Of a DNA stretch of 64,000 nucleotides, positions 26,821-51,391 are shown piece by piece. The DNA is from Pelagomonas calceolata. Taxonomy: Eukaryota. The translations under genes and the position numbers were made by a program. The stretch spans positions 806,001 to 870,000 of the forward strand of contig CAKKNE010000003.1 of the NCBI GenBank assembly GCA_918797485.1, read 5' to 3'. The notes beneath the pieces were generated by a model. The model was not told the DNA's origin, did not search any database, and saw nothing but the letters and a program-made list of their open reading frames with translations. Each line of letters opens with the position of its first letter. Position 1 is the first letter of the stretch.

Positions 26821-29800
26821 ATGCCGATGTCCAGCAAGGCCTTCCTCGAGGCCACGCGCGCGCGCCAGGCCGAGGAGGCGCAGGCCGCGCGCATGGCGCG
26901 GTATGATGCCCACGTGAAGGCGCAGAGAGCCAAGAAGCGCCTGCGGAACGAGATGCGCGACGCCTTGGATACGCACAACAAGACCTTGGCTGGTAGGGCT
27001 CGGAAGTCCGCCGCTCGCTTAGCCGCGAACCCGCGCACGGGTGGAGCGGCCCCGAGGACGGCGGACGACGAGACCATAAGAAAAGCGTTTGCCCACTTCG
27101 ACAAAGATAATTCGGGTACCATCGACGTGCAGGAGCTCGGTGGTGCGCTACACATGGTTTTAGGGAGAAGGCCGGCCAAAGAGGCCATCCAGAAATTATT
27201 TGAAATTGCTGACGAAGACGGCTCGGGCGAACTAGACTTGCGAGAGTGGACGAAGGTGGCCAAAAGGGGCGAGTTGGTCGACAAAGAAATACTACATCCC
27301 AAATACCGGTTGATGATGGAGATCAAGCGGCGGCGGGCCGGTGAGAGGGACGCGTCGGAGGCGGCGCTCGCGGCGACGTCCGCGCAAATCGAGCAAGCAA
27401 AAAGGGAGGCGGACGCGACGCGCCAGAAGTGGAAGGATGAAGAAGAACGGCGCCTGCGGAACTCCATCGAGAGACGTAAGGTACTGAGAAAGCAACAGCT
27501 CGAACTCAAGAAGAAAAATGATGACATGAAGCGGCGCGACGACAAGCAACGGTTGAAGGAGCGCAAGGCGCGCAAAGCGAAGGTCGCGCAGGACGTCGCG
27601 GACGGCGTCGGCCACGAGCTGTATCGGGCGATGGAAGAAAGGGCGCGCAAGAGGTGTTTAGATGCCATCATCGAAGCTACTTTGACAGATGTGGACCGCG
27701 ACTTCGACAAACGGACATCTACGAGAGCGAATTCGAGGCAGATGTCGCGGTTCTACGTCGGGGCTCGCGAAGACTTGGCCATCCAACAGCAACGCGCCGC
27801 GAAGGCCCGTAAGATCAAGGAGGCCAACAAGCGCGCGAAGCCGGCCTGGTACGCGTCTACGACACCCAAATTCGACGACGTCGAACTCAAAGACCAGACG
27901 GTCTACACGCAGCCGCCCCAAGAAATTCTGGACGCCGTGCAAGACGGAGGTTTCGAAGACATGTCGGAATCAGATGACGACGGAGCCATGCCCGCGGAGC
28001 TGCGCAAGGTGCGCTTCGTCGAAGACGACCTGGACGCGGCGGCGACGCTACTCCAGAACTCGCAGCGACGGCGGACGGCGCGGCTCGAAGTGGCGCAGAA
28101 GCGCCAGATCAATTCCGCGGCGACGTTGCTGCAGAATTCCGAGAGGAGGCGGACGGCTCGCCTGGAAGTGGCGCAGAAGCGGCAGAAACGCGATGATAGT
28201 GCGGCGACGATGCTCCAAGGTTCGGTGCGGAGGCGCAACGCCAAGCAGGAGATCTCGCAGCGAAGACGCAAACGGGACGACGGCGCGGCTACGTTACTGC
28301 AGGGGTCTGTGCGACGGCGCAACGCCCGCGCCGAAGTGGAGCGCCGGCGCGCCGCGACGACGGAGCACAAAGAGTGGCCCGCGTTCGGCCAGAGCTTGAT
28401 AGGCGCGGCGGTCGAGGTCAACGTCGACGGAATGTGGCTCCCGGCCGAGATTGTGGAAGTGGGCGCGGCGCTGGCCGACTTGGACGGCGCGAACGGTGTT
28501 TGTGTGCGCTTTAGTGATGAGACCCATACAATTACAGAGGAGTGGCACGAGTTCGGCAGCGACGAGATCAGGATCATCGAAGCCGCGGCCGAAAACACGC
28601 GCCCGGCCTTCGGCGCGAGTTTAGTAGGCACCTACGTGCAGGTCCACGTCGCGGGGGCCTGGCTCGACGCCGTGGTCGTCGCCGTCGAGGCCGCGATGGC
28701 GGACCACGACCACAGGGACGGTATTTGCATCCAGTACGCCGCCTACCCGTCGGCGGATCCCGAGTGGCACTTGTATGAGAGCGAGGATATTTTATACAGA
28801 CGCCAGGCGCGCGACGACGACTCGTCGCTGCTCACGGCGCCATCCCTGGAACCCCGGGAGGAGGAGAGGCCTGCGACGCCCCTGCGCCTGGCGCCCGCGC
28901 CGGAACAACGCGAGTGGCCCGCCTTCGGCCAGGACTTGCTCGGTGCAAAGGTCAAGGTCAACGTCGCGGGCGCCTGGCTCCGCGCGGAAGTCGTGGAGGT
29001 CGGCGCGGCGCTGGCCGAGCTCGAGGGCGCGAACGGCGTTTGTATTCGCTTTACCGATAACGACGAGCACACGGAGAGCGAGGAGTGGCACGCGCACGGG
29101 TCGGACGAGGTGGTCGTCGTCAAGGCCGCGCGGGCGAACCCGCGGCCGGCGTTCGGCGCGAGCTTGGTCGGGGCCCACGTGCAGGTCCACGTGGCCGGGG
29201 CCTGGCTCGACGCGGTCGTCGTGGCCGTCGAGGCCGCGATGGAGGACCATTCCGGGCGGGACGGCATTTGCATCCAATACTCGAAGTACGCGTCGGCGGA
29301 TCCCGAGTGGCACCTCTACGACAGCGCGGACATTTTGTATCGGCGCCAGGCGACGCCGTCGGCGACGCTGGCGACGCCGCGCGACGACGACTCGTCGCTC
29401 GTCTCGTTCACGGCCTTCCAGGAGCCAATCAAGGAGGACGCGGCGGCGACGCTGCTGCAGTCGTCTCAAAGGCGGCGGACGGCGCGGCGGGAGGTGCAGC
29501 AGCGGCGGCGCGTGCGGGACGACGGTGCGGCGACGATGCTCCAGGGCTCCGTGCGACGGCGCAACGCCAAGCAGGAGGTGTCGCAGCGGCGCCGGCGCCG
29601 CGACGACGGCGCCGCGACGCGGCTCCAGGGTTCCATCCGACGGCGCAACGCGACGCAGGAGGTCGACCGGCGGCGGCGGGCCGCGCACGAGGAGCGCGAG
29701 GCCGCGAGGCTGCGCGCCGAGGCCGACGCGCGGCGCAGCCAGGAGGAGGCCGCCCGCGACGACTCCGCGGCGACGATGCTGCAAGGTTCGGTGCGGCGCC

Positions 29801-31623
29801 GCAATGCGAAGCAAGAGCTGTCGCAGAGACGCCAGGTTCGGGACGACGGCGCGGCTACGAAGTTGCAAGGCTCCGTCCGACGCCGCAACGCGAAGCAAGA
29901 GCTGTCGCAACGGCGCCAGGTGCGGGACGACGGCGCGGCCACGATGCTCCAGGGCTCGGTTCGCCGGCGCAACGCGAAGCAGGAGCTGTCGCAACGGCGC
30001 CAGGTGCGGGACGACGGCGCGGCGACCATGCTCCAGGGCTCGGTACGGAGACGCAACGCGAAGCAAGAGCTGTCGCAACGGCGTAAGGTCCGCGACGACG
30101 GCGCGGCCACGATGCTCCAGGGCTCGGTCCGACGGCGCAACGCCAAGCAGGAGCTGTCGCAACGGCGCCAAGCGCGCGACGACGCGGCCGCCGAGGCCGA
30201 GGCGGCGCGGCGCGCCGAGGCGGCCAAGGCCGAGGCCGACGCGCGCCGCCGCGAGTTCGAGCGCCAGGAGGAGCTGCGCCAGGCCGAGGCCGAGGCCGAG
30301 CTCCGGAAGGCCCGCGAGGCGGCCGAGGCGCGCCGGCGCGAGGAGGACCAAGAGAGAGAGCGCGTCGAGAAGGAGCGGCGCGCGGCCGACGAAGCCCGGC
30401 GCCGCGAGTTCGAGGCGAAGGAGCGGTCGCTGCAGCGCCCGACGTCGCGCGGCACGGTGTCCTTCTCGCCGGAGGTCGAGCGCGACGCGGCGCCCGAGTT
30501 TTATTGGAGATCAAGAAGGGTGGCCGAGGGCGACGTGCCCGTGCCGAAGCCGCCGGGCCGCGGCCTGTGCATCGCGAGGGCGCGGCGGGCCTTCGAGGCC
30601 GAGTCGGAGCAGGAGCTCCCGCTCGCCGACGGCGACCGCGTCCTCATCCGCTACGCGGAGCACCACCCGTCGCCGGGCTGGATCTTCGCCGCGATGCGCG
30701 GCAAGGCGGGCTACGTGCCCCGCAACTACCTCATCATCGTCGACGACGCGGCCGAGGCGCCCGTACCGGCGCCGCGGAAGCGCGACTTCGACCGGGCGCG
30801 GACGCCGCCGTCGCCCGGGTCGCGCCGCCGCGACTTCGACCGCGCGCGGACGCCGCCGACGCCCCCGAAGACGCCGCCTCCGCCAAAAACGCCTCCCACG
30901 ACGGCGGCGCCCTTCTTCGCGCCGCCGTCGCCCGACGAGGACGCCGACGAGCGCTCGGACGTCCTGGCGCCGCTGCCGCAGGACGACCTCCGCCGGTCGT
31001 CTTCAAGCAGACGCCGCGCGGCCGAGGAGGACGAGAACGTCATCGAGGACAGCCAGGCGAAGTTATACATAGCGTGCCAGCGCGGCGAGTTCGCCGTGGC
31101 GCGGCGCTGCGTGAAATATGGCGCGGACCCGGACCGGCCGAACGAGCACGGCTTCACGCCCTTGTTTTTGGCCTGCGAGAACGGCCACTTCGACGTCGCG
31201 CTGTTTTTGGTGCGGGACTGCGGCGCCGACGTCGACGAAGGGGCCAGCGCTTCCGGAAGAACGCCGCTCCACGAGGCGTGCTACGGCGGGCACCTCGAGC
31301 TGTGCAAGATGCTGCTGGCGTTTGGGGCCATGCTCATCGAGGACGAGGACGGCGACACGCCCTTGCAGGACGCCGAGAGCGAGGGCCACGCGGAGATCGT
31401 CGAGCTCATCATGGAGCACAAGGCGCGCGCCGCCGCCGCGCGCCAGGAGCTGCCCGACGGCTGGGAGGAGGTCTTCGACCCCGAGTCGGGCCAGTACTTC
31501 TACTTCCACGAGGCCTCGGAGGCGACGCAGTGGGAGCGGCCGGTCGCGGCTCCTCCCGAGCGGCCGGCCACGTCGGCGTCGTCGCCCGAGCGGCCAGACA
31601 GTACGGGCTTCCTCGGTGTGTAA
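26821..31623 (+). CDS. Large scaffold protein: EF-hand pair, 12 IQ-like repeats, duplicated Tudor-like modules, SH3, ankyrin repeats, WW
   Basis: DKDNSGTIDVQEL and DEDGSGELDLREW; AATMLQGSVRRRNAK repeats; ARRAFEAESEQEL...GW...GYVPRNYL; GFTPLFLACENGH; LPDGWEEVFD...YFY...TQWERP. Confidence 0.88.
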   Translation: MPMSSKAFLEATRARQAEEAQAARMARYDAHVKAQRAKKRLRNEMRDALDTHNKTLAGRARKSAARLAANPRTGGAAPRTADDETIRKAFAHFDKDNSGTIDVQELGGALHMVLGRRPAKEAIQKLFEIADEDGSGELDLREWTKVAKRGELVDKEILHPKYRLMMEIKRRRAGERDASEAALAATSAQIEQAKREADATRQKWKDEEERRLRNSIERRKVLRKQQLELKKKNDDMKRRDDKQRLKERKARKAKVAQDVADGVGHELYRAMEERARKRCLDAIIEATLTDVDRDFDKRTSTRANSRQMSRFYVGAREDLAIQQQRAAKARKIKEANKRAKPAWYASTTPKFDDVELKDQTVYTQPPQEILDAVQDGGFEDMSESDDDGAMPAELRKVRFVEDDLDAAATLLQNSQRRRTARLEVAQKRQINSAATLLQNSERRRTARLEVAQKRQKRDDSAATMLQGSVRRRNAKQEISQRRRKRDDGAATLLQGSVRRRNARAEVERRRAATTEHKEWPAFGQSLIGAAVEVNVDGMWLPAEIVEVGAALADLDGANGVCVRFSDETHTITEEWHEFGSDEIRIIEAAAENTRPAFGASLVGTYVQVHVAGAWLDAVVVAVEAAMADHDHRDGICIQYAAYPSADPEWHLYESEDILYRRQARDDDSSLLTAPSLEPREEERPATPLRLAPAPEQREWPAFGQDLLGAKVKVNVAGAWLRAEVVEVGAALAELEGANGVCIRFTDNDEHTESEEWHAHGSDEVVVVKAARANPRPAFGASLVGAHVQVHVAGAWLDAVVVAVEAAMEDHSGRDGICIQYSKYASADPEWHLYDSADILYRRQATPSATLATPRDDDSSLVSFTAFQEPIKEDAAATLLQSSQRRRTARREVQQRRRVRDDGAATMLQGSVRRRNAKQEVSQRRRRRDDGAATRLQGSIRRRNATQEVDRRRRAAHEEREAARLRAEADARRSQEEAARDDSAATMLQGSVRRRNAKQELSQRRQVRDDGAATKLQGSVRRRNAKQELSQRRQVRDDGAATMLQGSVRRRNAKQELSQRRQVRDDGAATMLQGSVRRRNAKQELSQRRKVRDDGAATMLQGSVRRRNAKQELSQRRQARDDAAAEAEAARRAEAAKAEADARRREFERQEELRQAEAEAELRKAREAAEARRREEDQERERVEKERRAADEARRREFEAKERSLQRPTSRGTVSFSPEVERDAAPEFYWRSRRVAEGDVPVPKPPGRGLCIARARRAFEAESEQELPLADGDRVLIRYAEHHPSPGWIFAAMRGKAGYVPRNYLIIVDDAAEAPVPAPRKRDFDRARTPPSPGSRRRDFDRARTPPTPPKTPPPPKTPPTTAAPFFAPPSPDEDADERSDVLAPLPQDDLRRSSSSRRRAAEEDENVIEDSQAKLYIACQRGEFAVARRCVKYGADPDRPNEHGFTPLFLACENGHFDVALFLVRDCGADVDEGASASGRTPLHEACYGGHLELCKMLLAFGAMLIEDEDGDTPLQDAESEGHAEIVELIMEHKARAAAARQELPDGWEEVFDPESGQYFYFHEASEATQWERPVAAPPERPATSASSPERPDSTGFLGV
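28372..29400 (+). repeat. Intragenic tandem duplication with a 540-nt (180-aa) period
   Basis: EWPAFGQ... begins at both 28372 and 28912; both copies end ...RDDDSSL. Confidence 0.9.
29758..30185 (+). repeat. 84-nt coding tandem repeat (IQ-like, 5 contiguous units)
   Basis: GACGAC...GCG..ACG..CT.CA.GG.TC units start at 29758, 29842, 29926, 30010 and 30094. Confidence 0.9.
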
Positions 31624-31929: not shown

Positions 31930-34900
31930 ATGTCAGGGTTCGAGCTGCCCGTTTTAATCGCGGCCGGCAGCGCCGCTGCCAGCGCCGCCAAACCGTACTG
32001 CAAAAAACTTGCTGAAAAAATACAAGAGTTCGTCTTGAAGCGGGCTGAAAAGGAGGTAGACGAGCGCGTCTTCCGCAAGGGCGAGAAAGCCGAGTTCGAG
32101 AGCGGGCTCAGAGACCTCGCAGGCCTTCTGGAGAGCGTGGTGTCGAATCCGGCGGTCGACGACCCATCTGTCAGGGACATGCTGGATGGACTCGGAAAGT
32201 CGATCAAGGTCGCCGCGGACGCGAAATACACAGAGGGACGCGAAGATGCGCTAAAAATTATTGACCAGCGCAAGAATAATTTGATGCTGGCACTTCTCAA
32301 CGTGACGTCCGCGAGGGTGCTGACGTCCGCTGGCAGAGATGGACAGGGCGGAATTGAAACGCTTTACACGTATACCGGGATTCCCCCGAGCAAGAGCGCG
32401 TCTTTCCTCGGTGGTGGCGCCTTTGCTACGGTGCACACGATGCGAAATGCGGGCGACAAGCTGATCTACGCGGTGAAGCTGACCATGATTAAGGGGGCAA
32501 CGCAGAAGGGCATTACCGTGGAGAAGCTCCGGGAGGAGGCCGTGCGGCTTCACTCGCTGAACCATTTTAACATCGTCCGCTACTACGCGGCCTTCACCTT
32601 CAAGGACGACTTCGACTACTTCGCGATAGTAATGGAGCACTTGACCGGTGGCTCGCTGCTAGATCGTCTAGAGAAGACCACCGGCGCGCTCACGAGCGAC
32701 GAGGCCCCCGACACCGCGAAATGGGCTCGCCAGGTCGCGTCGGCCCTCGCGCACATGCACGCGCAACGAATGCAGCACCGCGACCTCAAGCCCGACAACG
32801 TGCTCTTCAATGGGGCCGGCGACGCGAAAGTCATCGACCTCGGGCTCGCTATTGTTCTCAAGAAGAAGTCTAGGGTGTCGTCTAGGGGCGGCGCCAACGC
32901 CGTCGGCGCGCTGCTCTACCAGTCGCCGGAGAAAGCGCGCGGCGGCGCTTACGACGAGAAGGATGACGTCTGGGCCCTGGGTTGCATGCTCGCGGGAGCG
33001 GTGACGGGCCGGTCGCTCGAGGCACGCGATGACAAAGGGGCCGGCCTCCTCTCAAAGGACGAAACCAAAGTAAAGGAGCTAGTCCGCGAATCTAAAAGAG
33101 TGTCGCCCAAATTCGGCGGCCTCGTCGCCGAGATGCTCAAGTGGAATCCGAGGGCGCGGCCCACGGCCGCAAGCGTTGAAGAGTCGCTCCGGCTCGGGAA
33201 GCCGCTTTCGCCCGACGATGTTACGGTCGAGGAGACGCGCGACACGCCCAAGTCGACGAATAGCATCGTTAAGCGAATCTTTGGATGCTGTCTGGCTGAC
33301 CAGTCCGCGCTCGCCGAAGCGAAAGCCGGCAAGGAGAAAACGCAGCGCGAGGCGGCGGCGACTGCCGAAGCGAAACGGAGACGCGCTGCCGCCGAAGCCA
33401 AGGCCGCCGAGGCGGAACGAAAGCTTCGCGACGCCGAAGCAAAAGCCACCAGGGAAGGACGGCTTCGCGAGGCGGCGGCGGCCGCCGAAGCGGAACGGAG
33501 ACGCGCTGCCGCCGCCGAGGCCGAGCGGAGGCGCCGCGCCGCCGAAGCGGAGACCAACGAAGAGAAGCGGCAGCGGCTCGTTGCCGAGGCCAGGGCCGCG
33601 GAGGCGGAACGAAAGCTTCGCGTCGCCGAAGCGAGGGCCGCCGAGGAGCGGCGGCAACGTGCAGCCGAAGACGAAGCGGAACGGCAACGCCGGGCGAGAG
33701 TCAAAGCCGCCAAGGATGAAGAGGAGAAGCGACAGCGCCGCGCCGAAAAAATCGACCTGTCCAAGCTCGCCTTAGTGCGGACGCTGGAAGGGCACTCACA
33801 TGTCGTGCGTTGCGGCGTCCACTGTACTTTTGTGATGATGCGTCTTCGTCGTAGGTCAATTGCGTTGCGGTCTCTCCGGACGGGCGGCGCGTCGTGTCTG
33901 GGTCGACGGACCGCACGCTCAAGGTGTGGGACGTGGCGACGGGGAAATGCGTGGCGACGCTGAAAGGGCGATCTAAGATCGTGCATTGCGGCGTCCACTG
34001 TACTTTTGTGATAATCTGTCGTCGTTGCAGGTCCTTGGCGTTGCCGTGTTTCCGGACGGGCGGCGGGTCGTTTCTTGTGATGGGGGTGGTAATACGCCAG
34101 GAAGGCTCAAGGTGTGGGACCTGGCGACCGGCGAGTGCGTGGCGACGCTGGAAGGGCACTCGCGTTTCGTGCGTTGCGGAGTCCACTGTACTTTTGCGAT
34201 GATGTGTCTTCGTCGTAGGTCCATAGCGTTGCCGTGTTTCCGGACGGGCGGCGCGTCGTGTCTGGGTCGGACGACGAGACGCTCAAGGTCTGGGACGTCG
34301 AGACCGGCGAATGCCTGGCGACGCTGCAAGGGCACTCGGACAACGTGCGTTGCGGCGTCCACTGTACTTTTGTGATGATCTGGCTTCGTCGTAGGTCAAG
34401 TGCGTTGCCGTGTTTCCGGACGGGCGGCGCGTCGTGTCTGGGTCGTGGAAAGAGCTCAAGGTCTGGGACGTCGAGACCGGCGAATGCGTGGCGACGTTGG
34501 AAGGGCACTCTGACGGAGTGCGTTGCGGCGTCCGCTGTACTTTTGTGTTGATTTGTGTTCGTCGTAGGTCTTTGACGTTGCGGTGTTTCCGGACGGGCGG
34601 CGCGTCGTGTCTGCGTCGGGCGACGAGACGCTCAAGGTGTGGGACGTGGCGACGGGCGAATGCCTGGCGACGCTGCAAGGGCACTCGGATTTTGTGCGTT
34701 GCGGCGTCCGCTGTACTTTTGTGATGATGTGCCTTCGTCGTAGGTCCGCGGCGTTGCCGTGTTTCCGGACGGGCGGCGCGTCGTGTCTGGGTCGGAGGAC
34801 GAGACGCTGAAGGTCTGGGACGTCGAGACCGGCAAATGCGTGGCGACGCTGGAAGGGCACTCGTTGGACGTACGTTGCGGCGTCCGCTGTACTTTTGTGA

Positions 34901-35003
34901 TGATCTGGCTTCGGCGTAGGTCTATGGCGTTGCCGTGTTTCCGGACGGGCGGCGCCTCGTGTCTGCGTCGCGCGACAGCACGCTCAAGCTGTTCGCGTGC
35001 TAG
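31930..35003 (+). CDS. Helical N-domain, Ser/Thr kinase, coiled coil and 7-blade WD40 propeller; join 31930..33804,33855..33980,34031..34168,34219..34344,34395..34517,34568..34693,34744..34869,34920..35003
   Basis: Kinase motifs [31 protein letters not shown]. Seven 50-nt phase-0 GT-AG introns; the exons read [35 protein letters not shown] at 35001..35003. Confidence 0.92.
33805..35003 (+). repeat. ~176-nt tandem repeat made of a 50-nt intron plus a WD40 exon, 7 units
   Basis: Intron consensus GTGCGTTGCGGCGTCC(A/G)CTGTACTTTTGTGATGAT..GTCTTCGTCGTAG at 33805, 33981, 34169, 34345, 34518, 34694 and 34870. Confidence 0.95.
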
Positions 35004-35074
35004 GGCTCTAACTTCTAGTTGAGGCCACTCGCCATCGCCGCAGACACTCAGGCTCGAAACATAGACTTAGGAGA

Positions 35075-35740
35075 CTACTTCAGCCGCTCGATGAGCTGGC
35101 TCAGCTTGTTCTCGTCCGCGCCCGAGAAGCGCTCGATCTCCTTCCCGCCCTTGAAGAACACGAAGGTGGGCATCGACGAGACGCCGTGCGCCTGCGACAC
35201 GGGCTTCGCGGCGTCGACGTCGACGGCGTAGAAGCCGACGCCGCCGTAGCGGTCGGAAATCTTCGCGAACTTGGGCTTGATCTGCATGCAGGGCCCGCAC
35301 CACGACGCCCAGAAGTCCACGACGGTCAGCTTCGAGGATGCAATAGCTCTCTTCATCTCGGCCGCCGTCTTGATGGGCTTGACGCGGCCGCCCTCCATCT
35401 GCTTGAGGTCGTCGACGCTGATCGTGCGGCCGCCTCTACCTCTATTCATGCGCGACGCCTTCTTCGCCGGGGCCGCCGCGGGCGCCGCGGCCGACGCCTG
35501 GGCCGCGGCCGATGCGACGCCGTAGTTACCGCCGAACGCCGGGTCGAAGAATGATGCGATGAAATCCATGATCTTGCCGAGCAGCGACCGCTTCGGGCTC
35601 AGGACTTTGGCACCGGCGCCGCCGCGCAGGGAGAGCATGCAGGAGGTGAGCTTGCTTGGCCTCACGTGCAGCGCTGGCTTCGTTCTAGCAGCGGCCGCCG
35701 CAGCGATCGTGAGAAGACATAATGAGGCTGTCCGCATCAT
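35075..35740 (-). CDS. Thioredoxin with an N-terminal signal/targeting extension
   Basis: DFWASWCGPC, MPTFVFFKGG; hydrophobic N-terminus; LSLRGG motif. Confidence 0.93.
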   Translation of the reverse strand: MMRTASLCLLTIAAAAAARTKPALHVRPSKLTSCMLSLRGGAGAKVLSPKRSLLGKIMDFIASFFDPAFGGNYGVASAAAQASAAAPAAAPAKKASRMNRGRGGRTISVDDLKQMEGGRVKPIKTAAEMKRAIASSKLTVVDFWASWCGPCMQIKPKFAKISDRYGGVGFYAVDVDAAKPVSQAHGVSSMPTFVFFKGGKEIERFSGADENKLSQLIERLK

Positions 35741-39225: not shown

Positions 39226-42200
39226 ATGATGGGCCGCCGGCCCCAGTCGTCGGACGGCAACGCCTTGTTCCATGCGGCCCTGCGGAAGCGGAACGAGGAC
39301 ATGTCTACAAGAGATTCTAGAGTTGTCCACAAGAGCGACGAGGACGAGAACCCGTTCCTCCCACCGCTGCCGCAGCACCGGCACATCGGGCGGAAGCGGC
39401 CGAGTGATGAGGCGGCGCTGAATTGTGATTTTAAGTACTTGCTGATCAGGCACGGGTCCTACGCGAAAGCTAGAAGCGCTTTACGTCAAGCGAGACAGCA
39501 GCAATACACGGACAAGATGAAACGGTTGGCCAAGGCCGAATCTGAAAGGCAGAAGGTCATCGAGGTGCAGCAGGTCATCAAGTTGTCGAACACCACGGGC
39601 CATCCTACGTTGACGAATCCGATCAGCAAGCAGATCGCGACGCGGAAGAAGAAGAACAAGCCCCCGCCGCCCCCGCCCAAGCCGAACTCGCGGGAGAATC
39701 CCCGCTCCAAGACCATCGCCGAGATGACGGACGACGAGAAGGCAGTCTTACAAGCGTCGAGGATGAAAGGCTTACAAAAAGAGCAAGCCGCAGCGTTGGC
39801 TCGTGACTTACAGCGGCAGCAGGAGGTGCAGCGCGCCTTCGAGGCCGTGGACGATGGCTCGGGTACTCTTAGTAAGAATGACTTCGAGGAGCTGCTTGAG
39901 AGCTTGGGTCTCGGTGCGCGACCACCGGATAAGGATGAAGGAGTACCTTCTCAATCTGTATTCAGAGTACGAGCCGACGAGTGGTGGGCCGCGACGGACG
40001 TCTACAAGGCCGGGAGGATCGGGATTGGGGAAGCGGTCAACGCGCTACCCGAGCGAATATATGCTGCATTGGATGAGGACAGAAAACAAAGGAACAAGAT
40101 CGTCGCTTATCGCGAATCGTTGTTGATGGAGGCCGAGGACTTCGACGCCGAAGAGGTCGCTGAAGAAGATTTGGATCCCATACAAAGAGAACTAAGGCGG
40201 CCGACGCTCCAGTACAAGCCCTTTGAGTTCATGAAGCTGGTCAAGGCGCCGCCGCCGCCGGCGTGGCGCGACGACGGCGGCGCCTGGGGTTCACCGGTAG
40301 AAGCCCCACCTCTACCCGAAGACGGAGCGAAACGAGAAGGCTACCTCGCGGTGCAGCGCCACGAATTGATCGTCGTGGAGCGAGGTCTCCAGTATTTACC
40401 GTTGTTTCTGGGGTCGACGTTGATGCAGCAACTAGGTGTTACGAAGATAAGCATGCCGCGCAACCGCATACGGGAGCTGCACTGCTTTGAACTCGCCCCT
40501 GCGGTCGGGTGTCGCTCGTTAATCATGCTTAAGGAGTTGAGGATGCCCGGGAATGGTTTGAGGTATCTACCGGACGACATTGGCCTACTGAGACAATTAA
40601 CATATGCAGATCTAGGAAGAAACTCCCTGACGCACCTACCCCAGTCGTTCATGGAGCTTGGAGAGACGTTGACGTTCCTAGACGTCACTCGTAATAACTT
40701 TAAAAGACTACCGGACGATATTGGCGAGCTCAAGGCCCTGCAGACGTTCCTATGTGCGGACAACATCCTGCAAAGATTACCGGCAACACTACCTCGCTTA
40801 CACGAGCTGCAGTACCTGGACATCTCGGGCAACGGTCTCGCGCATCTTTGTACCTTTGCGCCACTCGCGGAAGTCGCGCGGAAGTTCACGGCCGGTGAGT
40901 CTGATTGGGATTTCAGAAAAATTCCCCTCAGAAATGTTGCGTACTATGTCAACACGAGGACGGGCAAGGTCCAGAAGACCATGCCCCACATGCTGTCCTT
41001 AACTCAAAGGGAATTAGGACAGTTGAAGTTGGGCCGGAATTCGCGCAGTGACAAGCCTCCTGCTGGCGAGGTGCCGCCGCCGGATCCTTCCCTCATCACG
41101 TCCACCGTATCCTACAACCACCGGAAGATGTTGATCGCGTCTTTTGGAGTTGATGAGTGGACGGTGGACTGGAGTGATGCGGACGGTGCCATGGTCTATG
41201 AGTCTGCTGTTAACTCTGAACGTACTATAGAGATGCCTTCTTCTCTCGATAGATTGGGCCAGTTACGGTCACTCATTGATCTGAGATGCGACAATAATCA
41301 GTTGCGAGATTTACCACCCTCATTAGCTAATTTAAAAAATCTGCGGCTGTTCAGATGTCGAGGAAACTACATCCGCCGGTTGATGCCGGACACGGGCAAA
41401 TTACAAAGTCTACGTACTTTAGATTGTACCCAAAATGAAATGAGCCATCTACCGGCATCCTGTGGGAAACTACAAAGACTACAGTCCATGTCTCTGCAAT
41501 CGAACAGATTCGAGAAACTACCGCCTCTGATCGGTAAACTTACCGGTTTGAAGCGATTGATGCTCGGTAATAACGCCCTCGAAACATTACCGTATGAAAT
41601 TGGCTTTTTAACCTCGCTCCAGGAGCTGCAGGTGTTCAATAATCCTTTGATAGATCCGCCCTACGAAACGATATCTGATTTACCAGCCATGATGTGGGCC
41701 TGCCGCCAGAAGTACTGGGCCATATTGAACGGCCCCGTGCCCGTCGTGACGGCCCATCAGACGGGTGCGGGCGACGAAGTTTATGAGCCTGAGCCTGCCT
41801 ATAAGATCCGCATGGCTAGGAAAGTTGAGGAAGCGGCAGCGACTGGACGCTTAGAACTACAGCTCCAGGGCGTCTACGAGATACCAGGCGCGAAGTGCAT
41901 CGAACGAAACGCTAAGGGAGACGACAAGTGGGCGCACCCGCACCTCGAAGGTTTACGTGTCTTAAAGATGTCGATGAACCATTTCAAGCAGGCGCCGTTG
42001 TTGACCGAGTCTTTGGGCAATTTGCGAGTTTTATGGTTGAAGGCCTGCGAGATCAAGCAACTAAATGAGGACGTCGACAACCTGCAGAAGCTGCGCGAGT
42101 TAATTTTGGAAGAAAATGAATTGACAGAATTACCGCGCACGTTCCCGCGACTAAGGCAGCTGCAGCTGTTCAACTGCGCGCGAAATAACATCTACCACCT

Positions 42201-44490
42201 ACCGGAGGACCTGGGTAATTTAACAGCCTTAGTTACGCTAGACCTGTCGATGAACCAGCTCGAGTTCCTACCCGACTCGATAACGAATCTACACTACCTA
42301 GAAGAGTTAAGTGTAGCGAAGAATGATTTGTATAAACTACCGGAGATAGCGCCTCACCTCGAGCACCTGACCGCACTTAATTTAGATGCGAATAATTTGC
42401 ACTTGCTACCACCTCGCTTAGGGGAGTTGCCCCTCAAGTACTTACGAGCTTCGCATAATCGCCTAGAACGAATATATGACGACACGTTGCAAGGCAAGGT
42501 CGAGGAGACCCTAGAAGTACTGGGTGTAGCATCGAACAACTTACTGGAGCTGCCGGCCTGCATCCCCGCGTGTACCGCTTTGAAAATATGTCAAGTCGAG
42601 TACAATCCCATGCGCAATCCACCAGCAGAAATATTATCAGAGGGTGTGGAAATTTTATTACAGTACTGTCGAGTGCGAGAGAAGCGCTTCGACAAGTTCA
42701 AGGAACTGATGAGCGAGTTCCAGTTCGACTACTCGGAAGCGCACATGGCTCCGGAAGCCTTTGGCGTTCTTACGGGACGAACTGGTTTTTTAACACCAGA
42801 GGATTTGGCTGCGTTCGACAAGCAGGCGGATACGTATCTGAATGGGCAATACTACTCGTGTCCGTCGACGGATCTAGAAATATTGGAGAGGGTAGATAAC
42901 TTACGCCATGAAAGAGAACATACGTTCTATCATACGTTGTTGACGACCTTAATCGACGTGATTGAAGACGAGTTGAAGAGAGTTACTGGTTCCGGTAAGC
43001 GTCGGTTCGGCGGCGGTGTGCTGGTCGTCGAGCAGCGGCCGTGGGACAAGGACGGCGGGTACTGTGGGTCGTATGCTATCGCGCTGGACGCGTTGGTACG
43101 AGAGGCGAAGCCGGATCGGTTCCGACGGACCACGAGACCGGCCCTCTTCGACATCCTCAAGGTCAAACTCCCTCCCAGTCTATTTGATTACACATTAGAG
43201 GTTCTAAAAGATGCGATCATGAAGTACCAGGACCCGTATGGGCACGTGTCGCAGCTCGACAAGGTCGAATTTGATAGATGTGAATGCATCGACAAGAATG
43301 GCCGGCCGATCAACCACCGGAAATGTGTGCTGCCGGCGGTCTGCATCAAGAAAGTTATATATACGCAGGGCGAGGCGACGCGTGCGTATTCAGCGTCTGT
43401 TTTTACGCCGTCGACGCGACGTCCCGTCACCGTGGGCCCCCCGAGAGCGCCACCCGGCACGCCATCACCGCGCCACACCCACGCAGGCCGCGTCCAGGAG
43501 GACGACAAGATCGCCGCGACGTGGCGCAACCTGTGGAAGGACATCGAGCAGAAGATCAGGCAGCGGCACGGCAAGTTAATTATGAACAACGAGGTCCATC
43601 GAAGGAAGCGCAACGTGCAAACAAAAATCAAGAAGGCCAAGGAAGCCCTGGATAAGGCGAAGAACGACGTCAAGATGCTCTTGGACAAGTTGGAGATCGT
43701 GAAGCGGCGCATCGAAAACTTTGAAGCTGGCGATGCGTTCAATTTTCACCGCATCGCTTCGTCGGAAGAGGCTGAAGAACTGGAGCAGGAGGCCACGAAA
43801 GCCCTAGATGATAAAAAACTGGAAGTGCGGCAGTTCGAGTCGCAACTAGCTGTAGCGAAGACGCACGCGAAGATGCCGCCTAAAGTAGCCATGAACATCT
43901 GTCTCGAAGATATCAAGCGCAAGTATTGTGTGATGCGCTGGGAGGAAATAGTAGATGAAGCTAGACGAGATGCGGTCGAGTACGGGTATCGCCGGCCGTG
44001 GGACGGGGATGATGGTGAGGACTACGAGGTGTTCTATAACAGGTACGGGCGAGGTATCCGGGCGGGCCAGGAGATCGAAACGCTCCCGTCGTGGATCAAG
44101 CAGCTCAAGCCGGACCCCGCGCAGATCTTCAAGCCCGACCCGAACCTCCCGCCGGGCGTCGTCCAGACGAAGACCCAGACGCAAATACTGTACGAGTTGT
44201 TCCCCTACGACTGGAATTATACGGACGACATGTCCCAGTATGCCAATGACTACTACGACGAGTTCGAGAGCGAGTTCATTACCGAGGACATGGCGGCGCA
44301 AAACCGAAGGATCGCGCGGAATCTCAGGAATATCGAGCAGACGGGGAAAGCGCTGGACAAGAATTTTAGTCCGGAAGATGTTAAAAATGCGGTCGGTACC
44401 AATGATACTTCCGGAACGACGGACCAGTGGCGCAACGCGGAGATGAGCGCGAAGGACGCCCATAAGATCGCCGAGGACGACGGCATCTGA
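39226..44490 (+). CDS. Very large LRR protein with EF-hand, WW-like inserts and coiled coil; in-frame intron 43382..43486
   Basis: Three LRR blocks (LxxLxLxxNxLxxLP); VDDGSGTLSKNDF; YYVNTRTGKVQ; a 105-nt GTGCGT...ACGCAG intron. Confidence 0.85.
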   Translation: MMGRRPQSSDGNALFHAALRKRNEDMSTRDSRVVHKSDEDENPFLPPLPQHRHIGRKRPSDEAALNCDFKYLLIRHGSYAKARSALRQARQQQYTDKMKRLAKAESERQKVIEVQQVIKLSNTTGHPTLTNPISKQIATRKKKNKPPPPPPKPNSRENPRSKTIAEMTDDEKAVLQASRMKGLQKEQAAALARDLQRQQEVQRAFEAVDDGSGTLSKNDFEELLESLGLGARPPDKDEGVPSQSVFRVRADEWWAATDVYKAGRIGIGEAVNALPERIYAALDEDRKQRNKIVAYRESLLMEAEDFDAEEVAEEDLDPIQRELRRPTLQYKPFEFMKLVKAPPPPAWRDDGGAWGSPVEAPPLPEDGAKREGYLAVQRHELIVVERGLQYLPLFLGSTLMQQLGVTKISMPRNRIRELHCFELAPAVGCRSLIMLKELRMPGNGLRYLPDDIGLLRQLTYADLGRNSLTHLPQSFMELGETLTFLDVTRNNFKRLPDDIGELKALQTFLCADNILQRLPATLPRLHELQYLDISGNGLAHLCTFAPLAEVARKFTAGESDWDFRKIPLRNVAYYVNTRTGKVQKTMPHMLSLTQRELGQLKLGRNSRSDKPPAGEVPPPDPSLITSTVSYNHRKMLIASFGVDEWTVDWSDADGAMVYESAVNSERTIEMPSSLDRLGQLRSLIDLRCDNNQLRDLPPSLANLKNLRLFRCRGNYIRRLMPDTGKLQSLRTLDCTQNEMSHLPASCGKLQRLQSMSLQSNRFEKLPPLIGKLTGLKRLMLGNNALETLPYEIGFLTSLQELQVFNNPLIDPPYETISDLPAMMWACRQKYWAILNGPVPVVTAHQTGAGDEVYEPEPAYKIRMARKVEEAAATGRLELQLQGVYEIPGAKCIERNAKGDDKWAHPHLEGLRVLKMSMNHFKQAPLLTESLGNLRVLWLKACEIKQLNEDVDNLQKLRELILEENELTELPRTFPRLRQLQLFNCARNNIYHLPEDLGNLTALVTLDLSMNQLEFLPDSITNLHYLEELSVAKNDLYKLPEIAPHLEHLTALNLDANNLHLLPPRLGELPLKYLRASHNRLERIYDDTLQGKVEETLEVLGVASNNLLELPACIPACTALKICQVEYNPMRNPPAEILSEGVEILLQYCRVREKRFDKFKELMSEFQFDYSEAHMAPEAFGVLTGRTGFLTPEDLAAFDKQADTYLNGQYYSCPSTDLEILERVDNLRHEREHTFYHTLLTTLIDVIEDELKRVTGSGKRRFGGGVLVVEQRPWDKDGGYCGSYAIALDALVREAKPDRFRRTTRPALFDILKVKLPPSLFDYTLEVLKDAIMKYQDPYGHVSQLDKVEFDRCECIDKNGRPINHRKCVLPAVCIKKVIYTQGEATRAYSASVFTPSTRRPVTVGPPRAPPGTPSPRHTHAGRVQEDDKIAATWRNLWKDIEQKIRQRHGKLIMNNEVHRRKRNVQTKIKKAKEALDKAKNDVKMLLDKLEIVKRRIENFEAGDAFNFHRIASSEEAEELEQEATKALDDKKLEVRQFESQLAVAKTHAKMPPKVAMNICLEDIKRKYCVMRWEEIVDEARRDAVEYGYRRPWDGDDGEDYEVFYNRYGRGIRAGQEIETLPSWIKQLKPDPAQIFKPDPNLPPGVVQTKTQTQILYELFPYDWNYTDDMSQYANDYYDEFESEFITEDMAAQNRRIARNLRNIEQTGKALDKNFSPEDVKNAVGTNDTSGTTDQWRNAEMSAKDAHKIAEDDGI

Positions 44491-47994: not shown

Positions 47995-49083
47995 TTAGCC
48001 ACTAGCAATCGACGGCAGCGACAGCGGCAGCAGCGCCGTGTCCACGCGGGGCCCCGTCGCGAAGAGGCGGTCCCAGTGGTCGCCTCTCCGAAAGGTTGGC
48101 ACCGCCTTCTCCAGCGTGATCATCAACACACCATCAACGATCTCCCACCGCGCCTCGCCGACGGGCCGCAGGAGCCTCGCCCCGTCGAAGAACGCGACGT
48201 CCTTGAGGCCCGCGGTTAGCGTTTCGCGCGTCGCCTCGACGACGACGTCCTTCCGACCTCTCGGCAATTCAATGACGCACGTGACCGTCTCGGGCGTCTG
48301 GCGCCACGAAAATTCGCCGCAGTCGCCTCCATGAAAAGCGTTTGGCTTGAGTAAAGCCGTAGCTTGGAGTGGAGCCGACCAGGGCCCGGCGCCCCGCACG
48401 TTCGACGCCCGGGCGCGAATGTCCAGCGAGGCGCCGGGCGTCGTCGCGGCCGTGGCCGTCTTCTCGGTGGCATTGTAGGTCAGTGGCGTCCACGCGCCGT
48501 CGTCAGCACGGCTCTCCACGATCACGTCATCTGCGTTGCCGAAGCGGCCCCGCACTGCCACCACCTATGTGGAAATCAAATTTACGGCGCGTTCCTGCGT
48601 CGATCTCCACACCATCGACGCGACACATGTTCGATGGCGTGGCGATGTCGGTTCCTCACCGCTCGACGGAGCCAGGACGACCGCGTCGTCGCCGAGAAAT
48701 GACTTGGTGCACCCGGCACACTGGTTGATTTCCACACAGGCCACCACTTTCACCTCGATGGTCGTCGCCGTGCGCTTCTTGACCCGGATTGCGGGCGCGA
48801 TCGACGGCTTCGCGTAGGCGTGCCGTCCCATTGTGACCCGAGCGAGCCGCCGGCAGAGCCACACGCCGAGTTTGTACAACGGCCCCTGCCGCGACAGCTT
48901 CACGACCTTGCTCAGGCCGCGGCCGAGCCACGGGATTTTCAGCATGATTCGCACGACGACGTACAGTATCAGCAGGACGACGATTTGGAATTGCAGTAAG
49001 GCGAGGCGCTGTTTGAAGGTCGCAGCAGGCCGATCTGCGAGCTCCTGGAGCTTGAGCCGGGCGGCGGGGGAGAGCTCGCGCAT
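47995..49083 (-). CDS. Membrane-anchored FN3 plus CS (p23/NudC-like) domain protein; join 49083..48748,48564..47995
   Basis: TM segment; IRARASNVRGAGPWS (FN3); FSWRQTPETV...ITLEK...W.RLF (CS domain). Confidence 0.8.
48565..48747 (-). mobile_element. Introner element (183-nt intron)
   Basis: TIRs CTATGTGGAAATCAA/TTGATTTCCACACAG; perfect TSD GCCACCAC at 48557..48564 and 48740..48747. Confidence 0.95.
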
Positions 49084-49488: not shown

Positions 49489-51391
49489 ATGGCGGCGCAG
49501 ACGCAAGCTTCCGAACGGCGCAAGGAGTCCTCGCCCGCGAACTACGCCTTCGGCCGCGTCTTAGGTGAAGGCGCGTTCGCGCATTGCGTGCTCGCGAAGC
49601 AGCGCTCCACAAAAACGACGGTGGCCGTCAAGATCATGCTGAAGCGCCATGTGGAGCGCGAAGGGAAAGTAAGAGCTGTGCACGCGGAAAGGGAAGCGCT
49701 GGCACGAGCGCGGAGTGACCACATTGTGCGCCTGATCGAAACGTTCCAGGACCGCGACTACCTGTTCTTTGTGCTCGAGTTTTGTAGTGGAGGCGATCTG
49801 CGACGACTCCTCGACGCCAATATCCCGTCGATACGAGGAGAACACGGTTTAACAAAGTACGCCTCAAGCTTCTACGCCGGAGATGTCCTACTAGGCTTAC
49901 AATTCCTCCATTCGTTGGACATTGCTCATAGAGACCTAAAACCGGAGAACGTGCTCATCGATAATAAAGGGAGGTGCAAGCTCGGCGACTTCGGGGCCGT
50001 GCTGGATCTCACAAGCGGTCAGAGAGCGGGGAGCTTCGACGGTGCGTCGCCGCGTCCACTCGACGCCGTCGTCATGAGCGCGCCGTCATCACGAGTAATT
50101 CGTACACGCGCAGGCACGGCCGAGTACGTGTCGCCCGAGGTGCTGGAAGGGGAGAGTACGACTACAAAGTGCGACTTGTGGGCTTTAGGTTGTTTGGTGT
50201 TTCAGTTATCGACGGGACGGTTGCCGTTCACGGGCGCTACCGATTTTCTGGTCTGGGAAAAAATTGTGGCCTTCGCCGACGGTAACCGAGACGAGGTCGA
50301 CTTTACGTCTGTATCTGAAGATGTGGAGGATCTGGTACGTAGATTATGTAGGAGGGACCCGTCATCGAGGTTGTGTGGGGAGGAACTCGAGGCGCACGCG
50401 TTTTTTGTGTGTCCGGTCGCGGACATTCGCGCGTCCCGAGCTTGTGTGCCGTGGACGCCGGAGCCGTGCTCCCACACCTGTGAAGCGTCGTTTAGCGTGG
50501 AGTATATGCTGGATCTGGAGGCCGGGAGCTACGGGGACAACGTCCCGACCTGTGCATAAATCAAATTTTCACGGCGCGTTCGTGCTGAATCGTCGCGTCG
50601 ACCGCCACGCCATCGACGCGACGCCTGCTCGATAGCGTGCGGTTCCTCAGAGTTGTGCACAGGTCCCTACACTGCGGGAGTCGGAAACATCAGTGGCAAG
50701 TACAAAAAAACTCGTCGGGTCCGCGTCCTCGAGACGGGCCCTGACGGACTACGACTGGGACGCTTCATTAAGTTCGGAACGCGTCGTGGCGAAGGGTATA
50801 CTGTGGAAGCGCAAGGGCCTGTTCTGGAGGGAGCGCGTGTTTTTATTGACGTCGGCGCCGCGGTTGGTGTATTATGACGCCTCCAAGAAGGTGCCAGAGC
50901 GTAAAGGTTGTGTGGAATGGCCCGCGGACGCGCCTCCCAAAATACGGCGACGGTCTCCAAGTAGATTTGATGTTTGTGTTGCTGGTCGCGATTATCACCT
51001 GGCGGCAAAAGGCGACGGCGACGATTCGGCAGATGCCTGGATCACGCGCCTGTCTCGCGTGTTTTCCGGTGATTTAAGTCCAAAAGTCGGGCGCCAGGGC
51101 TGGATCTACAAACGGGGCGGCGGCGGCACGTCGTCGGCCTATCGGCGGCGGTATGCAATACTAAGGGGCAACCAGCTCTTCTACTACCGGCGGCCGCCCG
51201 CCCAACAAGCCGTCTCGCCGCAGGGCGTCGTGCGCGTGCTGAGTGCGTCGATCGCGCCGGAGGACATGCCCGGCAAGGCCGCGTTCACGATGGCGACGGA
51301 CTCGGGGCGGACCTTTTATGTGTGCGTCGAGACGGCCGAGGAGCGGGCCGCGTGGCTAGCCGTGCTGCCCGAGGCGGACCCTTGTTCGTGA
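49489..51391 (+). CDS. PDK1: 3-phosphoinositide-dependent kinase 1 homolog with two PH domains; join 49489..50041,50114..50541,50663..51391
   Basis: FGRVLGEGAF, HRDLKPEN, SFDG|TAEYVSPE, DLWALGC; KRKGLF..R..LLT..PRL.Y (PDK1-type PH); second PH RQGWIYKRG. Confidence 0.88.
50542..50662 (+). mobile_element. Introner element (121-nt intron)
   Basis: Ends CTGTGCA.../...TGCACAG; TSD GTCCCGAC/GTCCCTAC; interior AAATCAAATTT..ACGGCGCGTT is shared with the 48565 element. Confidence 0.88.

What the first reader, a model, noticed from the sequence alone, without database searches (positions are those of the whole stretch)
31930..35003. Kinase-WD40 gene built one repeat per exon, with near-identical introns and hypervariable codons: candidate diversifying immune/non-self receptor
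Seen: seven 50-nt phase-0 introns of nearly identical sequence separate WD40 exons of 126, 138, 126, 123, 126, 126 and 84 nt. The repeat scaffolds are almost invariant even at nucleotide level, while changes cluster at three sites: after GHS (HV, KI, RF, DN, DG, DF, LD), after the exon-initial Val (NC, LG, HS, KC, FD, RG, YG), and in the GSxDx loop ([40 protein letters not shown]). Established: these correspond to the ligand-binding top face of WD40 propellers. Homogenised repeats with hypervariable sites characterise fungal HNWD (HET-E/HET-D) receptors, and one-repeat-per-exon shuffling is described for LRR/TPR exons in Ectocarpus. Inference: the intron+exon unit is a recombination cassette that lets blades be swapped, gained, lost or skipped without frameshift, generating new specificities wired to a kinase output.
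Basis: partly seen in the sequence, partly recalled or inferred. Interest (0 to 1): 0.88.

Follow-up and report, generated by a model that had tools for sequence, protein, structure and literature searches.

The report
Hypervariable WD40 receptor family in picoalga
In the ocean picoalga Pelagomonas, this gene builds a seven-bladed WD40 propeller one blade per exon, separated by near-identical spliced introns, and it belongs to a gene family whose blades differ mainly at the predicted binding-face residues, so it likely acts as a fast-diversifying sensor of pathogens or other non-self.

Summary
Observation confirmed: seven 50-nt GT-AG phase-0 introns, all spliced in poly(A) reads, give a 907-aa frame (helical bundle, kinase, coiled coil, seven WD40 blades). 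The organism is Pelagomonas calceolata; its annotation stops before the propeller. The same intron marks 27 metagenome loci, always at the same blade position. These propellers follow kinases, helicase-like or RelA/SpoT-like domains, with no NACHT/NB-ARC seen. Variation peaks at the two codon pairs selected in fungal HET-E: dN/dS 3.7-7.1 at three predicted top-face hot spots, 0.35 in the scaffold. A syntenic relative differs at 5 of 6 hypervariable residues but 3 of 36 others. Not supported: whole-exon cassettes (linkage decays within about 10 nt), exon skipping, and a kinase-propeller mRNA (no sense reads over the kinase in the one sample read, while the propeller is highly transcribed). Best reading: a NOD-less, HNWD-like non-self sensor family evolving by fine-scale gene conversion plus diversifying selection. 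Immune function is untested. New variant of a known kind.

The parts
31930..33804 (+). Exon 1 (625 codons): N-terminal helical bundle, kinase, coiled coil, closing strand d and GHS-HV of the propeller
   Evidence: residues 1-615 identical to P. calceolata CAH0370596.1 (P0121)
31930..32343 (+). N-terminal four-helix bundle (residues 1-138) with a short leading helix; shared by family members with other central domains; resemblance to MLKL/CC-R bundles inconclusive
   Evidence: AlphaFold model pLDDT 66.9; no Pfam hit; homologs P0283-P0291; VIA Z 8.1-8.2, tied with unrelated bundles
32401..33177 (+). Ser/Thr protein kinase domain (residues 158-416), catalytic motifs intact ([27 protein letters not shown])
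   Evidence: Pfam Pkinase E 3e-46; motifs
33300..33745 (+). Ala/Glu/Arg-rich predicted coiled-coil linker; sense RNA 5' ends fall here
   Evidence: sequence; read ends at 33335, 33547, 33558
33746..33804 (+). Start of the propeller module (KIDLSKL linker, strand d, GHS); paralog reads diverge upstream of 33746
   Evidence: 379 loose-end reads at 33746 in X21; same linker in 9 of 27 loci
33805..33854 (+). Intron 1, 50 nt, phase 0
33855..33980 (+). Exon 2, WD40 blade 1 (126 nt)
33981..34030 (+). Intron 2, 50 nt
34031..34168 (+). Exon 3, blade 2 with a 4-residue longer b-c loop (138 nt)
34169..34218 (+). Intron 3, 50 nt
34219..34344 (+). Exon 4, blade 3 (126 nt)
34345..34394 (+). Intron 4, 50 nt
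34395..34517 (+). Exon 5, blade 4 (123 nt)
34518..34567 (+). Intron 5, 50 nt
34568..34693 (+). Exon 6, blade 5 (126 nt)
34694..34743 (+). Intron 6, 50 nt
34744..34869 (+). Exon 7, blade 6 (126 nt)
34870..34919 (+). Intron 7, 50 nt
34920..35003 (+). Exon 8, strands a-c of blade 7 and stop (84 nt)
33330..35025 (+). Abundant spliced sense RNA that lacks the kinase and has no in-frame AUG
   Evidence: depth 27 rising to about 500-1000 in X21; last in-frame ATG at 33133
32800..33750 (-). Antisense RNA over the kinase 3' part and the linker
   Evidence: opposite-mate depth 13-43 in X21

Best explanation
This gene encodes a seven-bladed WD40 propeller, one blade per spliced exon, behind a helical bundle, a kinase and a coiled coil, and it likely serves as one of many fast-diversifying intracellular non-self (probably pathogen) sensors that lack the NOD domain of fungal HNWD receptors. 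Shown: the structure, the splicing, a multi-locus family with the same intron at the same blade position, and amino-acid variation concentrated at the codons flanking the conserved Val and Asp. Inferred: frequent short-tract gene conversion and in-register crossover among the family's near-identical repeats homogenise scaffold and introns alike, while diversifying selection keeps new residues at the top face; the intron is mostly a passenger that may add homology. Inferred and untested: a ligand bound to the propeller would activate the kinase and the N-terminal bundle, ending in a defence response such as cell death. The full-length mRNA would be conditional, since the RNA seen in culture starts after the kinase.
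For: Family: 27 loci from one exact 28-nt scan; 73 of 73 introns found by the 5' motif alone are followed by a blade start. Variability: in 73 exons the top codons are 42, 2, 18, 41, 20 (2.5-3.9 bits). Codons 42, 2 and 18 are R1-2, R1 and D-1, the top-face hot spots of PMC3419727 (passages); 42/2 and 18/20 match the pairs flanking a conserved residue in the d-a loop and b-c turn that PMC1805685 found selected in HET-E (passages; the mapping is mine). Selection: omega 3.7 (LRT 19.2) or 7.1 (LRT 7.9) at those three codons against 0.34-0.36 in the scaffold, 65 exons; pN 0.58 at six variable codons against scaffold pS 0.18 and intron distance 0.116; 64 of 65 exons have a distinct four-residue combination. 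Orthologous change: syntenic L013 has 313/326 identity in the neighbouring thioredoxin but differs at 5 of 6 variable residues and 3 of 36 others in blade 6; L002/L011 give the same 5/6 and 3/36. Domain reassortment as in NLR repertoires: kinase, SF1-helicase-like (P0288, L002, L017), RelA/SpoT-like (L005; lead only) or no central domain (P0286). Seven near-full-length wild variants of this kinase are 98-99% identical and open-framed.
Against: No functional data, no ligand, no infection data. No sense RNA over the kinase in the single sample read, and the abundant RNA has no in-frame AUG. Pairwise pN/pS at the six variable codons is only about 1.3 (0.58/0.46) and their synonymous rate is about twice the scaffold's on the all-site tree, so local hypermutation or patch replacement may contribute. 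The codon model is home-made and ignores recombination, which inflates omega. Metagenome arrays come from assemblies of the kind that PMC12222747 (passages) finds unreliable for such repeats. The N-terminal bundle is not shown to be a death domain.
Confidence: 0.6

Rival explanations
1. Whole intron+exon cassettes are the unit of shuffling or alternative splicing, as described for brown algal LRR/TPR exons.
For: Each exon is one blade. L008 and L026 share an identical last intron and exon but have wholly different preceding exons. Intron-flanked blades are more homogeneous (distance 0.094, 65 exons) than blades that start without an intron (0.19, only 8). Blade counts of 4, 6, 6, 7, 7, 7 in the six loci assembled from linker to stop.
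Against: r2 is 0.02-0.03 beyond 10 nt against a background of 0.02, within exons as across introns; non-variable sites alone give 0.014-0.031, with all four gametes in 79 of 80 pairs more than 10 nt apart. No clean exon skip among the 15 best joints. No spare or inverted exons fit in 50-nt introns. Swaps and counts may be assembly artefacts.
Confidence: 0.12
2. A recent burst of amplification of one consensus-like blade gave ordinary signalling adaptors; the top-face residues vary because they are unconstrained, not because diversity is selected, and there is no defence role.
For: New propellers arise by amplification of single blades (PMC6805158, abstract start in listing). Pairwise pN/pS at the variable codons is modest. 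No functional evidence for immunity.
Against: Unconstrained sites should not diverge several times more than introns and silent sites of the same repeats (0.58 against 0.12-0.18); omega above 1 at sites defined beforehand from the literature; fast turnover at orthologous loci.
Confidence: 0.15
3. The locus works as two units: a silent or separately expressed kinase gene and a propeller RNA from an internal promoter (non-coding, a decoy, or started at a near-cognate codon).
For: Zero sense depth over 32063-33272 against hundreds over the blades, with antisense RNA leaving the same region; the public annotation ends at residue 616; one variant with a 278/280 identical kinase carries a PARP domain instead of the propeller (P0130).
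Against: No stop separates kinase and propeller here or in 6 wild variants that run into the first intron; no in-frame AUG for a propeller-only protein; only one sample was read.
Confidence: 0.1
4. The introns are introner transposons that inserted independently into each repeat.
For: P. calceolata has 956 putative introners (10.1101/2021.10.25.465678, passages).
Against: Those peak near 210 nt; these are 49-61 nt, fold no better than shuffles (z -0.98 to 0.06, three introns), and 73 of 73 copies sit at the same blade position, so they spread with the repeat.
Confidence: 0.03

Closest known systems
Podospora HNWD/NWD receptors (HET-D, HET-E, HET-R)
   Same: 42-aa WD40 repeats with high internal conservation, exchange within and between genes, diversifying selection on two codon pairs of the top face, varied N-terminal domains (PMC1805685, PMC4986451, PMC13449251: passages).
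   Different: No NACHT or HET domain; one propeller of about 7 blades instead of about 11 repeats; an intron inside the d-a loop codon pair of every repeat; a unicellular alga, where cell-fusion incompatibility is not known (recalled).
Brown algal ROCO-LRR and NB-ARC-TPR candidate receptors (Ectocarpus)
   Same: One repeat per exon, diversifying selection on repeats, stramenopile host (PMC3341825: abstract and part of Results; PMC11378527: passages).
   Different: WD40, not LRR/TPR; tiny near-identical introns without spare or inverted exons; no alternative splicing seen here; no ROC-COR or NB-ARC. In Ectocarpus shuffling was reported as restricted to LRR and TPR genes and not seen in LRR-kinases.
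MLKL and CC-R/CC four-helix-bundle executioners
   Same: N-terminal helical bundle of about 120 residues before a kinase; structural hits to MLKL NTD (Z 8.1, rmsd 2.6, 102 aligned) and NRG1.1 CC-R (Z 8.2, rmsd 3.0, 103 aligned); a relative kinase has a weak MLKL_N hit (P0011, E 1e-4, below cut-off).
   Different: The hits are tied with unrelated bundles (top Z 9.3); no Pfam or profile link for this bundle; the kinase keeps its catalytic motifs; a C-terminal propeller is added.
Bacterial kinase-WD40 proteins (PkwA type) and bacterial NACHT/NB-ARC-WD40 proteins
   Same: Kinase-linker-WD40 layout (recalled; PMC6113231 seen in listing only); single blades match bacterial highly repetitive WD40 proteins at up to 77% identity.
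   Different: No introns; no shared N-terminal bundle shown; transfer versus convergence on the consensus was not tested.

Membership tests
HNWD/NWD (fungal NLR) | Central NACHT (STAND) domain | tested here: not met
   Pfam finds only a kinase in exon 1; no NACHT/NB-ARC in the upstream frames or relatives scanned; many loci are cut at the 5' end, so other members are not excluded
HNWD/NWD (fungal NLR) | WD40 repeats with high internal conservation | tested here: met
   scaffold nucleotide distance 0.088 in the window and 0.094 across 65 exons
HNWD/NWD (fungal NLR) | Diversifying selection on two top-face codon pairs | tested here: met
   codons 42/2 and 18/20 against pairs 7/9 and 25/27 in PMC1805685; recombination not modelled
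HNWD/NWD (fungal NLR) | Repeat exchange within and between genes | tested here: inconclusive
   linkage decay and similar within/between-locus distances (exon scaffold 0.090/0.111; introns 0.083/0.078) fit it, but assemblies may be chimeric
HNWD/NWD (fungal NLR) | Triggers regulated cell death on recognising non-self | not testable with these tools
   needs experiments
Brown algal exon-shuffling receptors | One repeat per in-phase exon | tested here: met
Brown algal exon-shuffling receptors | LRR with ROC-COR, or TPR with NB-ARC | tested here: not met
   WD40 and kinase only
Brown algal exon-shuffling receptors | Spare or inverted exons in introns; alternative splicing of repeats | tested here: not met
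   50-nt introns; no clean skip among the 15 best joints in one sample, 63 weaker joints not shown
MLKL-like / CC-R executioner | N-terminal four-helix bundle homologous to MLKL/RPW8/HeLo | tested here: inconclusive
   bundle predicted; Z about 8, tied with unrelated folds; Foldseek E 0.3 or worse; no profile match
Introner element | Copies at many unrelated insertion sites | tested here: not met
   73 of 73 copies at one blade position in 27 loci; whole genome not available

The most novel reading that the evidence does not exclude
A NOD-less, mix-and-match immune receptor family in one of the ocean's most abundant unicellular algae: an MLKL/CC-R-like killer bundle, an exchangeable enzyme (kinase, helicase or nucleotidyltransferase) and a hypervariable WD40 sensor, in which an intron placed inside the main specificity codon pair acts as a recombination spacer, and a constitutive kinase-less RNA keeps the killer half silent until infection.
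Probability: 0.2. Interest if true: 0.87.

Novelty: new variant of a known kind. Interest (0 to 1): 0.68.

Why it matters
How single-celled marine algae recognise viruses and parasites is largely open. This family gives named candidate receptors in a cultured, globally abundant picoalga, with a readable four-residue specificity code per blade that can be followed in ocean metagenomes. It suggests that the HET-E way of making diversity arose again, on the same codons, without a NOD domain and outside multicellular organisms. It also flags an annotation gap: the public model of this gene omits all seven blades. Not found in print in my searches; two pelagophyte genome preprints have no occurrence of 'WD40' in the main text (their supplements were not seen).

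Tried and rejected
No whole genome is held, so family size per genome is unknown. Strain-to-strain comparison on reads of other samples remains open. The intron pattern has 0 matches in viral contigs. A search with one blade for longer proteins returned mostly bacterial and fungal WD40 arrays and no protein named as Pelagomonas among the 120 of 653 listed. N-terminal bundle: no Pfam family, Atlas scores at most 0.82, hhalign to the MLKL-like N-termini of six relative kinases probability 0.2, Foldseek nothing at E 0.001, with Rx-CC at E 0.33. The RelA/SpoT label for L005/L027 comes from a recalled motif; Pfam and PDB sequence searches found nothing and the Atlas gave one set of clusters at 0.92 with RelA_SpoT on 34% of members: a lead only. 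Introns have no special fold. The sigma-70 promoter scan is not meaningful for a eukaryote and found nothing. A diversity-generating retroelement was considered: all four bases occur at first codon positions without an obvious adenine-only pattern and I saw no reverse transcriptase among the window's ORFs by eye; not tested further. Rows dropped: 8 of 73 exons before the codon model, 5 of them valid blades (including the window's blade 1) lost to an over-strict donor filter and 3 not true exons; the 73 include those 3. Three look-ups of earlier findings returned nothing. The literature search for Pelagomonas antiviral defence listed nothing on Pelagomonas in 12 rows.
Full report
Observation. 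The region holds seven 50-nt GT..AG introns, 41-47 of 50 identical in pairs, with no other copy in the window and none expected by chance. Exon 1 is 1875 nt and the following exons are 126, 138, 126, 123, 126, 126 and 84 nt; all junctions are phase 0 and the spliced frame is 907 aa with a single stop. Pfam finds a kinase at residues 158-416 and a WD40 match in each of the 7 small exons, 5 of them above the curated cut-off. Raw poly(A) reads (6-8% of four runs, one sample) splice 7 of 7 junctions, with up to 75 letters on each side, which also supports the exon order. Residues 1-615 are identical to the Pelagomonas calceolata protein CAH0370596.1, which is annotated as 616 aa and lacks the propeller.

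A family. One exact 28-nt scan of metagenome contigs gave 27 loci; viral contigs gave 0. Searching those loci by the intron's 5' motif alone found 73 copies, each followed by a blade start. A fuller parse gave 113 introns including the window's 7, of 49-61 nt, 77 of them 50 nt (that parse required a blade start). The loci end in more than ten different C-terminal tails, and reads from expressed paralogs are seen in the cultured sample. What precedes the propeller varies: related kinases (P0002-P0009, P0016), SF1-helicase-like domains (L002, L017, P0288; weak Pfam hits), a RelA/SpoT-like stretch (L005, L027; recalled motif, Atlas lead only), or the N-terminal bundle alone (P0286). No NACHT or NB-ARC was found in what I scanned. 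The same kinase family also occurs with ARM, ankyrin, ubiquitin or Tudor tails, and once with a PARP domain on a 278/280 identical kinase (P0130), which may be an assembly chimera.

Where it varies. Across 73 126-nt exons, entropy peaks at exon codons 42, 2, 18, 41 and 20 (3.9, 3.7, 3.5, 3.1, 2.5 bits) while most scaffold codons are under 1 bit. By the sequence rules of PMC3419727 (passages), codons 42, 2 and 18 are R1-2, R1 and D-1, the top-face hot spots. PMC1805685 (passages) reports selection in HET-E on two codon pairs, each flanking a conserved residue, in the d-a loop and the b-c turn; these map to 42/2 around Val1 and 18/20 around Asp19 (my mapping; the numbering in PMC12222747, passages, agrees). 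The intron sits inside the first pair. A home-made MG94 model on 65 exons gave omega 0.34-0.36 for the scaffold and 3.7 (LRT 19.2, all-site tree) or 7.1 (LRT 7.9, scaffold tree) for R1-2/R1/D-1 (8 of 73 exons dropped, 5 of them valid). Without a tree, pN at six variable codons is 0.58, against scaffold pS 0.18 and 0.116 between the 32 50-nt introns that do not match the search pattern. Against this: pS at the same codons is 0.46 by path counting, their fitted synonymous rate is twice the scaffold's or more, and recombination is not modelled.

Turnover at one locus. L013 is syntenic: it continues into the same thioredoxin gene (313/326 identical), yet blade 6 differs at 5 of 6 variable residues and 3 of 36 others, the intron at 4 of 50 nt. 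L002 and L011 share a 99% identical 3' flank and give the same contrast. L018 and L022 are 98% alike across the array, so not every pair differs. Wild variants of this kinase, 98-99% identical, carry ES, LA, NS or KC where the window has HV. These are metagenome assemblies, and short-read assembly is unreliable for such repeats (PMC12222747); the last-exon differences lie within about 80 nt of unique sequence and are the safest. In the cultured sample no fixed difference from the window is listed within the array (16 weaker rows not shown).

How diversity is made. If exons moved as intact cassettes, sites within an exon should stay linked. They do not: in 50 junction-centred units r2 is 0.124 at 1-3 nt, 0.05 at 4-10 nt and 0.018-0.025 beyond, with background 0.02; non-variable sites in 65 exons give the same picture. 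Introns are as alike between loci as within (0.078 against 0.083), exon scaffolds slightly more alike within (0.090 against 0.111, 0 of 1000 permutations). This fits short-tract conversion and in-register crossover across a family-wide pool, as proposed for HNWD genes. Phase 0 needs no special explanation, since all introns are copies of one. The intron may still help: the 8 blades that start without an intron are twice as divergent (0.19 against 0.094), and L008/L026 switch exon next to an intron. Exon skipping is not seen among the 15 best-supported joints; skip-like joints carry extra letters that match paralog blades. The introns are not introner-like in length (about 210 nt in 10.1101/2021.10.25.465678, passages), fold or distribution.

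The output end. AlphaFold predicts a four-helix bundle at residues 23-138 behind a short leading helix (pLDDT 66.9, 17 sequences). It aligns to MLKL, AtMLKL3 and NRG1.1 CC-R bundles at Z 7.2-8.2, but unrelated bundles score up to 9.3 and the tool warns that Z under about 13 is common for helical bundles, so a death-effector role is a lead only. The kinase motifs are intact.

The main result against a simple model. Sense depth is 0 over 32063-33272 in 3 of 4 runs and 0.61 in one bin of the fourth, rises from about 33330, and is 500-1000 over the blades in X21; antisense RNA covers 32800-33750, so the region is mappable. The few sense reads near the ATG all carry a different base at 31945 and probably come from another copy. 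There is no in-frame AUG after 33133, only near-cognate codons. In this culture, then, the dominant RNA cannot encode the kinase. The open, conserved frame in wild variants argues that the full protein is made at times; this is inferred from one sample only.

Verdict. The feature is real and is one member of an apparently undescribed pelagophyte family (searches; two genome preprints without 'WD40' in the main text, supplements unseen). It works like fungal HNWD sensors in how it diversifies and resembles brown algal receptors in exon layout (PMC3341825, abstract and part of Results; PMC11378527 and PMC13449251, passages), but it is a member of neither: no NOD, no LRR/TPR, no spare exons. New variant of a known kind; immune function inferred at about 0.6; interest 0.68.

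Noticed in passing
window 31930-33774 (P0121, CAH0370596.1): The public annotation ends at 616 aa and omits all seven WD40 exons, although they are spliced and highly transcribed; other family members may be mis-annotated in the same way.
   Followed up: partly
P0130: A variant with a 278/280 identical kinase and the same coiled coil ends in a PARP catalytic domain (Pfam E 1e-24) instead of the propeller; real domain swap or assembly chimera.
   Followed up: partly
P0006, P0009, P0011, P0016, P0021, P0024: Related kinases with a different, longer N-terminal helical domain; P0011 has a weak MLKL_N hit (E 1e-4, below cut-off). Several run into the same WD40 intron.
   Followed up: partly
L005 1462-2787 (-), L027 3200-4429 (-): A RelA/SpoT-like nucleotidyltransferase-looking domain precedes the propeller; L027 has a kinase fragment before it. 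Atlas lead only; the closest clusters are unnamed, some from diatoms.
   Followed up: partly
P0288, L002, L017, L023: N-terminal bundle plus SF1-helicase-like P-loop domain plus propeller start: a three-part layout with a helicase-like domain where NLRs have a STAND ATPase.
   Followed up: partly
L010, L018, L020, L021, L022: Tandem double propellers in which intron-bearing blades are joined to blades without introns that are more divergent.
   Followed up: partly
L004, L005: Frames upstream of the propeller begin Met-Gly with nearby Cys or Ser, resembling N-myristoylation signals (motif recalled); L004 looks like a propeller-only protein.
   Followed up: no
window 34219-34344: A single blade matches bacterial NACHT/NB-ARC/TIR/SIR2-WD40 proteins at up to 77% identity; gene transfer or convergence on the WD40 consensus.
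   Followed up: no
window 26821-31623 (+): 1600-aa upstream gene with EF-hands, an 84-nt tandem repeat array (29490-30191), chromo-like, SH3, ankyrin and WW domains.
   Followed up: no
window 35075-35740 (-): Convergent thioredoxin gene; its 3' end is covered about 30-50 times less deeply than the propeller exons in the reads laid.
   Followed up: partly
window 48556-48740 and 50549-50639: A short interspersed repeat also present in L004 and L024 (75-89% identity).
   Followed up: no
window 40001-44000: Low-GC stretch (0.52-0.53 against about 0.63) inside a 1754-aa ORF (39226-44490) that looks leucine-rich-repeat-like by eye.
   Followed up: no
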